NCBI RefSeq assembly: GCF_009914755.1
Contig: NC_060930.1
Reading direction: 5' to 3' (one strand)
DNA: 64,000 nucleotides
Source of the DNA: the human T2T-CHM13v2.0 reference genome, Homo sapiens
In this document: piece by piece, positions 1,513-6,269 of the stretch
How positions within the stretch are numbered: position 1 is the stretch's first letter
Layout of the letters: each line of letters begins with the position of its first letter
Notes under the pieces: model-generated
Database searches by the model: none
Told to the model about the DNA's origin: nothing
The model's input: only the letters and a program-made list of their open reading frames with translations
Made by a program: the position numbers and the translations under genes

Positions 1513-2160
1513 AGCTACAGTGGGTTTAGCACCACTTTAATGCTAGACTTTTACACTTTATGTACAATCTATCCAATCTTCACAATCTTGCAGAGTAGAT
1601 ATATGTTGTCATTTACAGATGATGAACCCTGGCAACAGAATGATTTGCCCATGGCCTTAGAAGAGATGAATGTCAGAACCAAAGGTCAATCCAGCTCTAG
1701 ACCACCAACCCCAACATTTTCTAACCTAATGTCTCCCGTCCAGAAGAGACAAATCTGAAAAACAAATCAAAATCCAAAAATAAAAGTCTTGCTTTGGACA
1801 CTCCCAATACCTCAAAAACCTGAAACATCACATCTTTTGTAGGTAAGCGACATGGTTTGGCTGTGTCCCCACCCAAATCTCACCTTGATTTGTAGCTCCC
1901 ATAATTTTCACGTGTTGTGGGAGGGACCCGGTGGGAGATAATTGAATCATGGGGGCAATTTCCCTCATGCTGTTCTTGTGGTCGTGTGCACAAACTGAAG
2001 TCTCACGAGATATGATGCTTTTATAAAGGGTTTCCGCTTTTGCTTGGTTCTCATTCTCTCTTGCCTGCTGCCACGTAAGGCATGCGTTTTACCCTCCGCC
2101 ATGATTGTGAGGTGTCCCCAGCCACGTGGAACTGTGAGTCCATTAAACTTCTTTTTCTTT

Positions 2161-3153
2161 TTTCTTTCTTTCTTTCTTTTTTTTTTCTTTTTTTCATTAT
2201 ACTTTAAGTTCTAGGGTACATGGGCACAATGTGCAGGTTTGATACATAGGTATATATGTGCCATGTTGGTTTGCTGCACCCATTAACTCATCATTTATCT
2301 TAGGTATTTCTCCTAATGCTATCCCTCCCCCGGTCCCCCACCCCCTCAGCAGGCCCCGGTGTGTGATGTTCCCCACCTTGTGTCCAAGTGATCTCATTGT
2401 TCAATTCCCACCTATGAGTGAGAACATGTGGTGTTTGGTTTTCTGTCCTTGTGATAATTTGCTGAGAATGATGGTTTCCAGCTTCATCCATGTCCTTGCA
2501 AAGGACATGAACTCATCTTTTTTATGACTGCATAGTATTCCATGGTGTATATGTGCCACATTTGCTTAATCCAGCCTATCATTGATGGACATTTGGGTTG
2601 GTTCCAAGTCTTTGCTATTGTGAAAAGTGCTGCAATAAACATACGTGTTCATATGTCTTTATAGTAGCACGATTTATAATCCTTCGGGTATATACCCAGT
2701 AATGGGATTGCTGGGTCAAATGGTAATTCTAGTTCTAGGTCCTTGAGGAATCGCCACACTGTCTTCCACAATGGTTGAACTAATTTACACTCCCACCAAC
2801 AGTGTAAAAGCGTTCCTATTTCTTCACATCCTCTCCAGCATCTGTTGTTTCTTGACTTTTTAATGATTGCCATTCTAACCAGCATGAGATGGTATCTCAT
2901 TGTGGTTTTGATTTGCATTTCTCTGATGATCAGGGATGATGAGCATTTTTTCATGTGTCTGTTGGCTGCATAGATGTCTACTTTTGAGAATTGTCTGTTC
3001 ATATCCTTTGCCCACTTTTTAATGGGGTTGTTTTTTTCTTGTAAATTTGTTTAAGTTCTTTGTAGATTCTGGATATTAGCCCTTTGTCAGATGGGTAGAT
3101 TGCAAAAATTTTCTCCCATTCTGCAGGTTGCCTGTTCACTCTGATGGTAGTTT
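2161..3153 (-). mobile_element. 5'-truncated L1 (~L1PA6): ORF2 C-terminus, 3'UTR and A-rich tail
   Basis: ORF 2649-3002 is the L1 ORF2 C-terminal region. The 3' end reads TGTACCCTAGAACTTAAAGTATAAT (minus). CCATGTTGGTTTGCTGC and GGTATTTCTCCT (plus) fit L1PA5-7. Confidence 0.9.
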
Positions 3154-3177
3154 ATTTTTGTTGTTGTTGTTGTTGTT

Positions 3178-4736
3178 CTTTTTTTTTTTTTATTGATCAT
3201 TCTTGGGTGTTTCTCGCATAGGGGGATTTGGCAGGGTCATAGGACATTAGTGGAGGGAAGGTCAGCAGATAAACAAGTGAACAAAGGTCTCTGGTTTTCC
3301 TAGGCAGAGGACCCTGCGGCCTACCGCAGTGTTTGTGTCCCTGGGTACTTGAGATTAGGGATTGGTGATGACTCTTAACGAGCACGCTGCCTTCAAGCAT
3401 CTGTTTAACAAAGCACATCTTGCACCGCCCTTAATCCATTTAACCCTGAGTGGACACAGCACATGTTTCAGAGAGCACCGGGTTGGGGGTAAGGTCACAG
3501 ATCAACAGCATCCCAAGGCAGAAGAATTTTTCTTAGTACAGAACAAAATGGAGTCTCCTATGTCCACTTCTTTCTACACAGACACAGCAACAATCTGATT
3601 TCTCTATCTTTTCCCCACATTTCCCCCTTTTCTATTTGACAAAACCGCCATCATCATCATGGCCCGTTCTCAAAGAGCTGTTGGGTACACCTCCCAGATG
3701 GGGTGGCGGCCGGGCAGAGGGGCTCCTCACTTCCCAGAAGGGGTGGCCGGGCAGAGGCGCCCCCCACCTCCCGGATGAGGCGGCTGGCCGGGTGGGGGCT
3801 GCCCCCCACCTCCCTCCCGGACTGGGCGGCTGGCTGGGCGGGGGCTGCTCCCCACCTCCCTCCTGGATGGGGCGGCTGGCCAGGCAGAGATGCTCCTCAC
3901 TTCTCAGACGGGGTGGCTGCCGAGCGGAGGGGCTCCTCACTTCTCAGACGGGGCGCTGCTGGACGGAGGGGCTCCTCACTTCTCAGACGGGGCTGCCGGG
4001 CAGAGACGCTCCTCACCTCCCAGACGGGGCGGTGGGGCAGAGGCGCTCCCCACATCTCAGACGATGGGCGGCCGGGCAGAGACGCTCCTCACTTCCTAGA
4101 CAAGATGGTGGCCGGGAAGAGGCGCTCCTCACTTCCCAGACTGGGCAGCCAGGCAGAGGGCCTCCTCACATCCCAGACGATGGGCGGCCAGGCAGAGATG
4201 CTCCTCACTTCCCAGACGGGGTGGTGGCCGGGCAGAGGCTGCAATCTCGGCACTTTGGGAGGCCAAGGCAGGCGGCTGGGAGGTGGAGGTTGTAGCTAGC
4301 CGAGATCACGCCACTGTACTCCAGCCTGGGCAAGATTGAGCACTGAGTGAACGAGACTCCGTCTGCAATCCCGGCACCTCGGGAGGCTGAGGCTGGCAGA
4401 TCACTCGTGGTTAGGAGCTGGAGACCAGCCCGGCCAACACAGCAAAACCCCGTCTCCACCAAAAAAAATACGAAAACCAGTCAGGCATGGCGGCGCATGC
4501 CTGCAATCGCAGGCACTCCGCAGGCTGAAGCAGGAGAATCAGGCAGGGAGGTTGCAGTGAGCCGGGATGGCAGCAGTACAGTCCAGCTTTGGCTCGGCAT
4601 CAGAGGGAGACCGTGGAAAGAGAGGGAGAGGGAGACCGTGGGGAGAGGGAGAGGGAGAGGGAGAGGGAGACTGTGGGGAGAGGGAGAGGGAGAGGGAGAG
4701 GGAGACCATGGGGAGAGGGAGAGGGAGAGGGAGAGC
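3178..4736 (-). mobile_element. Full-length SVA retrotransposon (SVA_C-like)
   Basis: All domains in order on minus: (CCCTCT)n hexamer ~4605-4735, Alu-like ~4240-4605, GC-rich VNTR ~3690-4240, SINE-R ~3192-3690 with AATAAA. Plus-strand GAGAGCACCGGG, CAACAGCATCCC and AATGGAGTCTCCTATG point to a pre-SVA_D type. C+T13 occurs at both 3178-3191 and 4736-4749 (probable TSD). Confidence 0.95.
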
Positions 4737-5031
4737 TTTTTTTTTTTTTGAGACAGAGTCTTGCTCTGTCTCCCAGGCTGGTGTACAGTGGCGCGATCTC
4801 GGCTCACTGCAAGCTCCGCCTCCTGGGTTCACGCCATTCTCCTGCCTCAGCCTCCCGAGGAGCTGGGACTACAGGCACCCACCACCACGCCCAGCTAATT
4901 TTTTTGTATTTTTAGTAGAGACGGGGTTTCACCGTGTTAGCCAGGATGGTCTCGATCTCCTGACCTCGTGATCCACCCGCCTCGGCCTCCCAAAGTGCTG
5001 AGATTATAGGCGTGAGCCACCGGGCCCGGCC
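4737..5031 (-). mobile_element. Full-length AluY
   Basis: AluY diagnostics GGATCACGAGG, AGATCGAGACCATCCTGGCTAACACGG and GAATGGCGTGAACCC. The A13 tail abuts the SVA hexamer. Confidence 0.95.
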
Positions 5032-6269
5032 CTAAACTTCTTTTTCTTTATAAATTACCTGGTCTCAGGTATGTCTTTATCAGCAGTGTGAAAATGGACT
5101 AATACAGTGAGAAAAGAAAGCTGATGAAAAACCAAAGGGAAGTTGGAAATGTGTTGTATTCACTGATTGAGGAGTCTGGGAAAAGTCCCAGCAAACCCCT
5201 TCCCCCATCCTCCATAAATCTGTCTTCCTAGACATGGCAGATCTGGGGAATATGGCATCACACAACTTCCAAAGGCCAGCAACCAAATAGAGGTCCCAGA
5301 GTCAAGCAGGTCACAGTTGCACAACCACACCCAACCTGAGGAGCTGTCAGCACATGGATACTCAGGAAACTGGATGTCTGCTTGTAGATCACAGCTTAGA
5401 GACCGGCGCTCTGTCTACCTTACCTACAGTGAAGGGTGGACAGCTTACCCTTTCAATCGCTAACACTCTCGGTAGATTTTTAGAGACATAGGTGCATAGA
5501 GAAAATACATCTCATTTTTAACTTTTTACCTTCTCCCTTTTCCTCACTCTCAGCTGACGACATGAGTTTTTATTTCTCTGAGAAACTAGAAACTAGAAGA
5601 GACTTTGCACAAACTTAACCCACCACACAAACCCACATGAATAGAATCTCACTCACATGCTTGCTTTCCAGGCAGTATCCACAGGTAAGTAACCCATGCT
5701 TCTTAATTTAAAGCCACTTCCTCTGCTTGTACATAGACATCCCCCATCGAAAGCTTAGCACAAGTGCTGCATGAGTTAAACTCATCGGACACCGCCTACT
5801 TCTATGAGGAGAAGAAAGATAACCAGAGAGAGAATCCATGAAAAAGACAGATGTCCTAACACTTACGGGCTTCGCAGTCTTAATTCCAGGGTCCATAGCT
5901 GGTTACATTAAACCTCGGAGTCCGCTGTGTCCTCATTAAAGCAAAAGACAAACTTCCAAGCCTACAAGTGTTGTATACCAAGTGTAGAATTAACTTTGTG
6001 TTTTATTTCCTCATAAACATCTCAGTTGTAAGGGGAAAACAAATGTGTAGCTTTATTATCTTGGGAAACTCTACAGAGCAGTTTTATTAAGAACTTTCTC
6101 TTCCTCTCCTAACTCTCTTAGCATAAATTTTTATTTCTCCCACTAAAATGTATCATTGCACTTAAAAAATGTTTATTTGTCTATCTATCTCTGAACTCTG
6201 GTTTTCAAAACTCTTGAAATCAATATAACATGGCATGTGCATTTATAAATAATTTAAAAGTGAATGAGG

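What the first reader, a model, noticed from the sequence alone, without database searches (positions are those of the whole stretch)
2144..5049. AluY + SVA + L1 tripartite cassette enclosed by a single 17-bp TSD inside a THE1 LTR
Seen: TAAACTTCTTTTTCTTT at 2144-2160 and 5033-5049 brackets three co-oriented minus-strand elements. In order they are a full-length AluY (with one extra 5' G at 5032), A13G, a full-length SVA, A13G(AAC)nAAAAAT, and a ~1-kb L1PA6-like 3' end with poly-A. The L1 has no TSD of its own; the SVA has a plausible one (C+T13 at 3178 and 4736). Established: L1 RT can template-switch to make single-TSD chimeras (U6-L1 and Alu-L1 types), and SVAs can carry 5' and 3' transductions. 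Inference, model A (favoured): an Alu-L1 template-switch chimera inserted first, and the SVA later landed in the Alu tail. Model B: the whole Alu-SVA-L1 moved as one composite transcript, which would be an undescribed SVA transduction family.
Basis: partly seen in the sequence, partly recalled or inferred. Interest (0 to 1): 0.8.

Follow-up and report, generated by a model that had tools for sequence, protein, structure and literature searches.

The report
Alu, SVA and L1 nested together
Three human jumping-gene copies (an AluY, an SVA and the tail end of an L1) sit head to tail inside an old LTR between one clean 17-base target duplication, and the evidence points to ordinary stacking of insertions in A-rich tails over millions of years, not to a new kind of composite mobile element.

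Summary
TAAACTTCTTTTTCTTT occurs exactly twice in the window (2144-2160, 5033-5049). It brackets three minus-strand elements: a full-length AluY with one extra 5' G, a complete 1,544-bp SVA, and a 962-bp L1 3' end with tail. A related uninterrupted LTR in the same window carries the site once.

The SVA has its own exact 14-bp flank (C+T13). These are the only two such runs in 64 kb. It is also clearly younger: CpG-weighted divergence is 0.9% against 3.1-3.6% for the L1 (p = 0.0003-0.003). The Alu (2.2%) cannot be separated statistically from either.

Both internal junctions are unique in T2T-CHM13. No source or sibling copy was found, and the cassette starts exactly at the Alu 5' end. Model B (one composite transcript) is therefore not supported.

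An AluY+L1 unit formed first and the SVA landed in its A-rich linker later. One genome cannot tell whether that unit was a single chimeric Alu/L1 insertion (Model A, a class with 452 catalogued cases) or an L1 landing in a fresh Alu tail. I put serial nesting at about 0.5 and the chimera at about 0.38. Either way it is ordinary, and primate outgroup alignments would settle it.

The parts
1840..2143 (.). Left part of the host LTR (MaLR/THE1-type by recalled resemblance)
   Evidence: 80% identical over 309 nt to an uninterrupted copy at 31241-31540. The family name is recalled, not tested.
2144..2160 (.). Outer target-site duplication, copy next to the L1 tail
   Evidence: Exact 17-mer, one of only two copies in the window. 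The site is single-copy in the uninterrupted LTR.
2161..2196 (-). A-rich tail after the L1 (sense: G A7 G A10 G (AAAG)3 AAAA)
   Evidence: Sequence; TRF rows at 2154-2195.
2197..3158 (-). 5'-truncated L1 3' end: ORF2 C-terminus plus 3' UTR
   Evidence: ORF2p residues 1064-1191, E = 1.5e-76. The 39 other listed genomic copies align over about query 1-962 at 91-93% identity. Homology ends in the L1 site GCAAAAGAAAC.
3159..3177 (-). (AAC)6 microsatellite at the L1 5' boundary
   Evidence: Sequence. Absent from all 29 aligned L1 relatives. One other L1 copy (L024) has CAACAACAAT at the same site.
3178..3191 (-). A13G (sense), 3' flank of the SVA; proposed SVA TSD copy, merged with the SVA poly-A
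   Evidence: One of only two C+T13 runs in the window.
3192..4735 (-). Complete SVA: SINE-R about 3192-3700, VNTR about 3744-4239, Alu-like about 4240-4601, hexamer array 4602-4735
   Evidence: The other 39 listed genomic matches to 3192-3700 are at 97%; TRF arrays; repeat families D1-D3 and D5.
4736..4749 (-). A13G (sense): the Alu A-tail, which is also the proposed 5' copy of the SVA TSD
   Evidence: The second of the two C+T13 runs.
4750..5032 (-). Full-length AluY-type Alu (282 nt) with one extra 5' G at 5032
   Evidence: Alignment with 11 other Alu copies. 14 substitutions and 1 indel against the majority of 9 AluY-like copies. Two Metazoa_SRP matches on the minus strand, below the gathering score.
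5033..5049 (.). Outer target-site duplication, copy next to the Alu 5' end
   Evidence: Exact 17-mer.
5050..5110 (.). Right part of the host LTR
   Evidence: 87% identical to 31530-31597 of the uninterrupted copy.

Best explanation
Three separate L1-driven insertions stacked in A-rich tails, all in the orientation that tail insertion imposes.

(1) An AluY inserted into the LTR at a CTTT/AT endonuclease-type site and made the 17-bp TSD.
(2) Soon after, within the working life of the same L1 generation, a 5'-truncated L1 of about 1 kb was primed on the T-run opposite the Alu A-tail. Its own TSD is A-rich and now invisible. Its 5' end joined at an A-rich L1 site by microhomology.
(3) Much later, an SVA was primed in the A13 tract between Alu and L1 and made a 14-bp A13G TSD.

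Shown: the outer TSD, the single-copy empty site, the SVA's own flanks, the SVA being younger than the L1, and unique junctions. Inferred: that steps 1 and 2 were two events and not one.
For: - Outer TSD is exact and unique. The empty-site structure is seen in a paralogous LTR.
- The sense-strand target reads TTTAT/AAAGAAAAAG, i.e. CTTT/AT on the nicked strand.
- The SVA is flanked by the only two C+T13 runs in 64 kb.
- CpG-weighted divergence: SVA 0.91%, Alu 2.15%, L1 3.06-3.62%. SVA vs L1 p = 0.0003-0.003; Alu vs L1 p = 0.12-0.30.
- SVA 5' ends abutting an Alu tail in the same orientation recur at 8 loci including this one, with 0 in the reversed-pattern control. The two inspected (chr15, chrX) carry different Alus, so they are independent events.
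- A second tail-nesting example, a 185-bp SVA 3' end beside another SVA's tail, turned up in L002.
- A-rich tracts of Alus are documented sense-orientation insertion hotspots that leave very short or no TSD (PMC2836564, passages).
- A_nG occurs three times on the sense strand: A13G, A13G and A10G in the L1 tail. That is what serial tail insertions would leave, but it is low-complexity sequence.
Against: - No TSD of the L1's own can be demonstrated.
- The Alu point estimate (2.15%) is lower than the L1's (3.1-3.6%). Serial nesting needs the Alu to be the older of the two. The difference is not significant (p = 0.12-0.30).
- A single TSD around a full-length sense Alu plus a truncated L1 of matching age is also exactly the signature used to call Alu/L1 chimeras.
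- My prior odds of serial versus chimeric, about 1-2 to 1, rest on rough recalled and derived rates, not on a count.
Confidence: 0.5

Rival explanations
1. First reader's Model A. One TPRT event copied about 1 kb of an L1 RNA, then continued on an Alu RNA by template switch or prior RNA ligation. This gave a chimeric Alu/L1 insertion under one 17-bp TSD. The SVA inserted later in the A13 linker.
For: - One TSD, a full-length sense Alu, a 5'-truncated L1, a poly-A tail and an endonuclease-like site.
- Alu and L1 divergences are not distinguishable.
- This is a described class: 452 TSD-bounded Alu/LINE-1 chimeras, mostly full-length sense Alus. In 82.8% of them the Alu and L1 subfamilies were active at the same time. 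AluY+L1PA5 rows appear in Table S4 (PMC13174262, section 12 and Table S4 part 8).
- The L1 breakpoint in an A-rich L1 site would help a jump onto an Alu A-tail.
Against: - Every one of these features is also produced by an L1 landing in a fresh Alu tail.
- The defining test, arrival together in outgroup alignments, could not be run.
- The locus is not in Table S4. The 17-mer, its complement and 13-nt cores are absent from all 4 supplement files. The only chr6 row beyond 156 Mb is an L1PB4+AluJb. The interposed SVA would hide this locus from that pipeline, so absence means little.
- AluJ (61%) and AluS (33%) make up most of the 452 chimeras, so AluY cases are rare.
Confidence: 0.38
2. A single TPRT event with two template switches (L1 RNA, then SVA RNA, then Alu RNA) made a tripartite chimeric retroelement under one TSD.
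For: - Three co-oriented retrocopies, the two upstream ones full-length and each with an A-run, under one perfect TSD.
- Unique junctions are expected for such an event.
- The extra G before the SVA hexamers could be a copied cap.
- Double template jumps are documented in a fungus and in mouse. The two earlier human candidates lacked recognisable direct repeats (PMC2104539, passages).
Against: - The SVA is about 3-4 times less diverged than the L1 (p = 0.0003-0.003). A single event would need an old, dead L1 transcript as first template.
- The SVA has its own exact 14-bp flanks, the only two such runs in the window.
- The prior is very low.
Confidence: 0.04
3. The Alu came first. An SVA carrying an L1-derived 3' transduction (its source SVA sat inside an L1, and transcription ended at the L1 poly-A signal) then inserted as one unit into the Alu tail.
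For: - SVA 3' transductions are common: 748 of 7,554 insertions (PMC10681720, passage).
- The L1 piece starts at an internal A-rich L1 site that is a plausible SVA target. Some L1 copies carry A12 there.
- The piece ends at the L1's own poly-A site.
Against: - No SVA 3' end is joined to this L1 site anywhere else in T2T-CHM13. With a 4-34 nt gap there were 0 matches, and with a 35-65 nt gap only this locus. The junction 30-mer is unique; the 4 other matches, at 3 mismatches, are ordinary L1s.
- A transduced L1 could be of any age, and most genomic L1 sequence is far older (recalled). This one matches the Alu's age.
- The identical A13G on both sides of the SVA would be coincidence.
Confidence: 0.03
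4. First reader's Model B. Alu-SVA-L1 moved as one composite transcript from a source locus, i.e. an SVA with both a 5' and a 3' transduction.
For: One TSD around all three elements. SVAs do carry 5' and 3' transductions. The internal A13G pair could be the source SVA's TSD.
Against: - No sibling or source copy. The L1-SVA junction matches full-length only to itself among the 40 scored of 1,119 candidates and in the pattern scans.
- The Alu-SVA junction pattern hits 3 loci, but the other two carry different Alus.
- The cassette starts exactly at Alu base 1 (plus a G), which a Pol II start site has no reason to do.
- A Pol III transcript from the Alu would meet T4, T8 and T4 runs about 260-290 nt into the SVA.
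Confidence: 0.01

Closest known systems
Nested same-orientation insertions of L1-mobilised elements in A-rich tracts of Alus (Levy, Schwartz & Ast 2010, PMC2836564)
   Same: Co-orientation of all elements, insertion points in A-runs, and inner TSDs that are very short or pure A. The SVA-in-Alu-tail arrangement recurs at 8 loci in this genome.
   Different: This is a three-deep stack with a clean 17-bp outer TSD. That paper scored insertions inside the Alu body and linker, not in the terminal tail (passages only were read).
Chimeric Alu/LINE-1 insertions (Law & Burns 2026, PMC13174262; earlier U6/L1-type template-switch chimeras)
   Same: Full-length sense Alu 5' of a truncated L1, one TSD of 7 bp or more, poly-A tail, age-compatible subfamilies.
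   Different: Joint arrival is untested here. An SVA now splits the pair. The locus is not in their Table S4.
SVA 5'/3' transduction families (e.g. the MAST2-type SVA_F1 group; name recalled)
   Same: Non-SVA sequence on both sides of an SVA inside one TSD.
   Different: No shared junctions or source locus. The flanking pieces are complete or typical retrocopies with their own tails, and the 5' piece begins exactly at an Alu start.
Tripartite chimeric retroelements from double template switching (Gogvadze et al. 2007, PMC2104539)
   Same: Three fused retrocopies, one TSD.
   Different: The middle element has its own flanking repeat and is significantly younger than the 3' element.

Membership tests
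Chimeric Alu/LINE-1 insertion | Alu immediately 5' of an L1 3' fragment, in the same orientation | tested here: met
   Met once the SVA and one A13G copy are set aside. All elements are on the minus strand.
Chimeric Alu/LINE-1 insertion | One TSD of 7 bp or more bounding both parts, and none around the L1 alone | tested here: met
   17-bp exact TSD. No non-poly-A repeat flanks the L1. A-rich candidates (A13G / A10G) cannot be excluded.
Chimeric Alu/LINE-1 insertion | L1 endonuclease motif at the insertion site and a poly-A at the 3' end | tested here: met
   The nicked strand reads CTTT/AT, a degenerate TTTT/AA. The A-rich tail is 36 nt.
Chimeric Alu/LINE-1 insertion | Alu and L1 arrive together in cross-species alignments | not testable with these tools
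   No primate genomes are held; the genome search reports no relatives for this genome.
Chimeric Alu/LINE-1 insertion | Alu and L1 subfamilies active at the same time | tested here: inconclusive
   Divergence 2.15% vs 3.06-3.62%, p = 0.12-0.30. The values are compatible but the test has low power.
SVA transduction family (Model B) | Sibling or source copies that share the transduced sequence and junctions | tested here: not met
   Junctions are unique in T2T-CHM13. The two other Alu-SVA pattern hits carry different Alus. Caveat: only the 40 best candidates are scored per DNA search.
SVA transduction family (Model B) | The 5' end is set by an upstream Pol II start site, not by an element boundary | tested here: not met
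   The cassette begins at Alu base 1 plus one G.
Canonical SVA insertion | Hexamer array, Alu-like region, VNTR, SINE-R, AATAAA and A-run, own TSD | tested here: met
   The TSD is A13G, which is low complexity, but these are the only two such runs in the window.
Tripartite chimera (double template switch) | All three parts of one age and no inner TSD | tested here: not met
   SVA vs L1 p = 0.0003-0.003. The SVA has its own 14-bp flanks.

The most novel reading that the evidence does not exclude
The whole cassette was written in one TPRT event by two successive template jumps (L1 RNA, then SVA RNA, then Alu RNA). That would make it the first human tripartite chimeric retroelement with an unambiguous TSD, and the first to involve an SVA. 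The first template would have been an old L1 transcript, which would account for the age gap.
Probability: 0.04. Interest if true: 0.5.

Novelty: new member of a known kind. Interest (0 to 1): 0.15.

Why it matters
It matters little beyond annotation. The locus is a tidy textbook example of how A-tails attract further L1-driven insertions and how a single outer TSD can mimic a one-step composite.

It also shows a blind spot. A later SVA between the Alu and the L1 would hide a possible Alu/L1 chimera from pipelines that look only at the sequence immediately 5' of an L1.

Only if outgroups showed an empty site wherever the SVA is absent would it become interesting, as a one-step tripartite chimera.

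Tried and rejected
- Pfam gave no family for three translated L1 pieces. The PDB sequence search gave the ORF2p label instead.
- The first SVA-gap-L1 pattern (gap 4-34) could not have matched this locus, whose gap is 41 nt, so I repeated it with a 35-65 nt gap.
I used the 7 SVA copies already fetched, a small and arbitrary comparison set.
- I tried to place the window in hg38 through the Table S4 row chr6:164828061 by looking for its TSD in the window. There was no match, so hg38 coordinates stayed unknown and published SVA presence/absence tables could not be consulted.
- Supplement phrase searches for chr6 coordinates returned nothing, probably because of the colon. I read Table S4 part 8 of 15 instead; the other 14 parts were searched by term only.
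- PMC4229983 uses 'template switching' for replication-based rearrangement and is not relevant.
- L1 inserted into the SVA tail: rejected because the L1 is older than the SVA.
- L1 first, then the Alu inserted at the L1's 5' edge: rejected because no Alu-specific TSD exists.
- Strict subfamily calls (L1PA6, SVA_A-F, THE1 subtype) were not possible, since no repeat library is held.
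Full report
**Observation.** TAAACTTCTTTTTCTTT lies at 2144-2160 and 5033-5049 and nowhere else in the 64-kb window, even with 2 mismatches allowed. None of 100 shuffles gave two copies (family D9).

Between the copies, read on the minus strand from 5032 down to 2161:
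- One extra G, then a 282-nt Alu (5031-4750).
- A13 then G (4749-4736).
- A 1,544-nt SVA (4735-3192).
- A13 then G (3191-3178).
- (AAC)6 then A (3177-3159).
- A 962-nt L1 3' end (3158-2197).
- A 36-nt A-rich tail (2196-2161).

**Identity of the parts, from tools.**
- L1: the minus-strand translation of 2649-3050 matches human LINE-1 ORF2p residues 1064-1191 of 1275 (E = 1.5e-76). Pfam found nothing. The fragment has 12,710 first-look candidates in the genome. The 39 other copies listed, of the 40 scored, align over about query 1-962 at 91-93% identity.
- Alu: Rfam gives two below-threshold Metazoa_SRP matches on the minus strand. The sequence aligns end to end with AluY-like copies and starts one G before them.
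- SVA: TRF finds the VNTR (about 3744-4239) and the hexamer array (4602-4735). The SINE-R end (3192-3700) matches the 39 other listed genomic copies at 97%.
- Host LTR: the THE1 name is my recollection only. A related uninterrupted LTR at 31241-31597 shows the left and right flanks contiguous with the 17-mer site present once, so the 17-mer is a true target-site duplication.
- Target site: on the sense strand it reads TTTAT/AAAGAAAAAG, i.e. CTTT/AT on the nicked strand, an L1-endonuclease-type site.

**Is it one mobile composite (Model B)?** The window's own genome (T2T-CHM13) was searchable.
- L1-SVA junction: the 161-nt junction matched full-length only to itself. Other hits were SVA ends or L1s alone (40 of 1,119 candidates scored; inspected).
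- The 30-mer across the L1/(AAC)n boundary is unique. The 4 other matches, all at 3 mismatches, are ordinary L1 copies.
- A pattern tying the SVA 3' end to this L1 site found nothing with a 4-34 nt gap and only this locus with a 35-65 nt gap.
- The Alu-SVA junction pattern hit 3 loci, but the chr15 and chrX ones carry different Alus (one partial, one AluS-like), so they are independent events.
- A looser pattern (SVA hexamers, T10 or more, Alu 3' end, same orientation) hit 8 loci including this one, with 0 in the reversed control. SVAs sitting in Alu tails are therefore recurrent.
- The cassette starts exactly at Alu base 1.
- A Pol III transcript from that Alu would meet T4, T8 and T4 runs about 260-290 nt into the SVA.

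Model B has no support.

**Is the SVA a separate, later event?** Two lines of evidence say yes.
- C+T13 followed by a non-T occurs only twice in the window on both strands, exactly at the two SVA ends. This fits a 14-bp A13G TSD in which the T-run served fully as primer. It is low-complexity sequence, so I give it modest weight.
- Dating. I counted differences of each element from the base held by most of its fetched relatives.
  - L1: 39 of 954 positions against 29 relatives, of which 34 of 938 are non-CpG. Six of those 34 are shared by 3 or more relatives and are probably lineage variants.
  - Alu: 14 substitutions in 282 positions against 9 AluY-like copies, 5 of 234 at non-CpG positions and 9 of 48 at CpG positions. 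Two raw differences at positions 1 and 5 were dropped as artefacts of the flank and of CpG decay in the comparison copies.
  - SVA SINE-R: 6 of 507 against 7 copies (5 of 487 non-CpG).
  - Weighting CpG positions 8.7-fold gives L1 3.06-3.62%, Alu 2.15% and SVA 0.91%.
  - SVA vs L1: p = 0.0003-0.003. Alu vs L1: p = 0.12-0.30. Alu vs SVA: p = 0.076.
  - The SVA is therefore clearly younger than the L1. The Alu sits in between and cannot be separated statistically from either.
  - With recalled neutral rates (about 0.13-0.17% per Myr), the L1 and Alu are of the order of 15-25 Myr old and the SVA under about 10 Myr.
  - Caveats: the comparison sets are small, and the L1 and some Alu relatives were chosen for similarity to this copy.

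**How did Alu and L1 come to share one TSD?** Two known routes give the same picture.
- Route 1, a chimeric Alu/L1 insertion. Law & Burns 2026 (PMC13174262; I read sections 10-12, 19, 23, 40, 49 and Table S4 part 8 of 15) list 452 TSD-bounded cases. Most have a full-length sense Alu, in 82.8% the two subfamilies were active at the same time, and AluY+L1PA5 rows are included. Their defining evidence is joint arrival in outgroup alignments, which I could not test.
- Route 2, an L1 landing in the fresh Alu A-tail. A-rich tracts in Alus are sense-orientation hotspots that leave very short or no TSD (PMC2836564, passages).
- Several features fit both routes. L1 homology ends in the A-rich L1 site GCAAAAGAAAC, which suits microhomology joining and template jumping equally. 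The (AAC)6 may have grown from that L1 site, since one other L1 copy has CAACAACAAT there, or from the tail.
- The locus is not in Table S4, but the interposed SVA would hide it from that pipeline.
- From rough rates, partly recalled, I put serial nesting at about 0.5 and the chimera at about 0.38.

**Other readings.**
- An SVA with an L1 3' transduction dropped into the Alu tail (0.03). Transductions are common, 748 3' events in 7,554 insertions (PMC10681720, passage). But no source was found, the L1's age happens to match the Alu's, and the A13G pair would be coincidence.
- A one-step tripartite chimera by two template jumps (0.04). There is precedent in a fungus and in mouse, and the two earlier human candidates lacked direct repeats (PMC2104539, passages). 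It conflicts with the SVA/L1 age gap and with the SVA's own flanks.

**Not in print?** Searches and the supplement look-ups turned up no description of this locus. Supplements held only as PDF (mmc1) were not readable.

**Verdict.** The mechanism is ordinary: at least two, and probably three, L1-mediated insertions stacked in A-tails. Model A remains possible, Model B is not supported, and interest is low.

Noticed in passing
window 31241-31597: An uninterrupted LTR of the same family as the host LTR (80-87% identical). It served here as the empty-site comparator.
   Followed up: partly
L002 (G000:C7:130787008-130790116), locus positions about 1318-2047: A 185-bp SVA 3' end lies directly beside the T-rich tail of a second SVA 3' end in the same orientation. 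This is another case of nesting in an A-tail.
   Followed up: partly
window 4846-4897 (-) and 4770-4829 (+): Below-threshold Rfam matches to mir-1268 and mir-3135 inside the Alu. They are most likely Alu-derived family resemblance and not genes.
   Followed up: no
window 33566-33826 and 13030-13310: Two further AluY-like copies, 93.9% and 90.8% identical to the Alu of the cassette. The first lacks about 21 nt at its 5' end.
   Followed up: no
L023, L025, L026 (chr3, chr11, chrX L1 copies): Some L1 copies carry an A12 run at the ORF2 site GCAAAAGAAAC where this L1 is truncated. It is an internal A-rich tract that could itself attract insertions.
   Followed up: no
PMC13174262 Table S4, row chr6:164828061-164828419 (hg38): A catalogued L1PB4+AluJb chimera lies in the same chromosome region by my rough coordinate estimate, but its TSD is not in this window.
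   Followed up: yes
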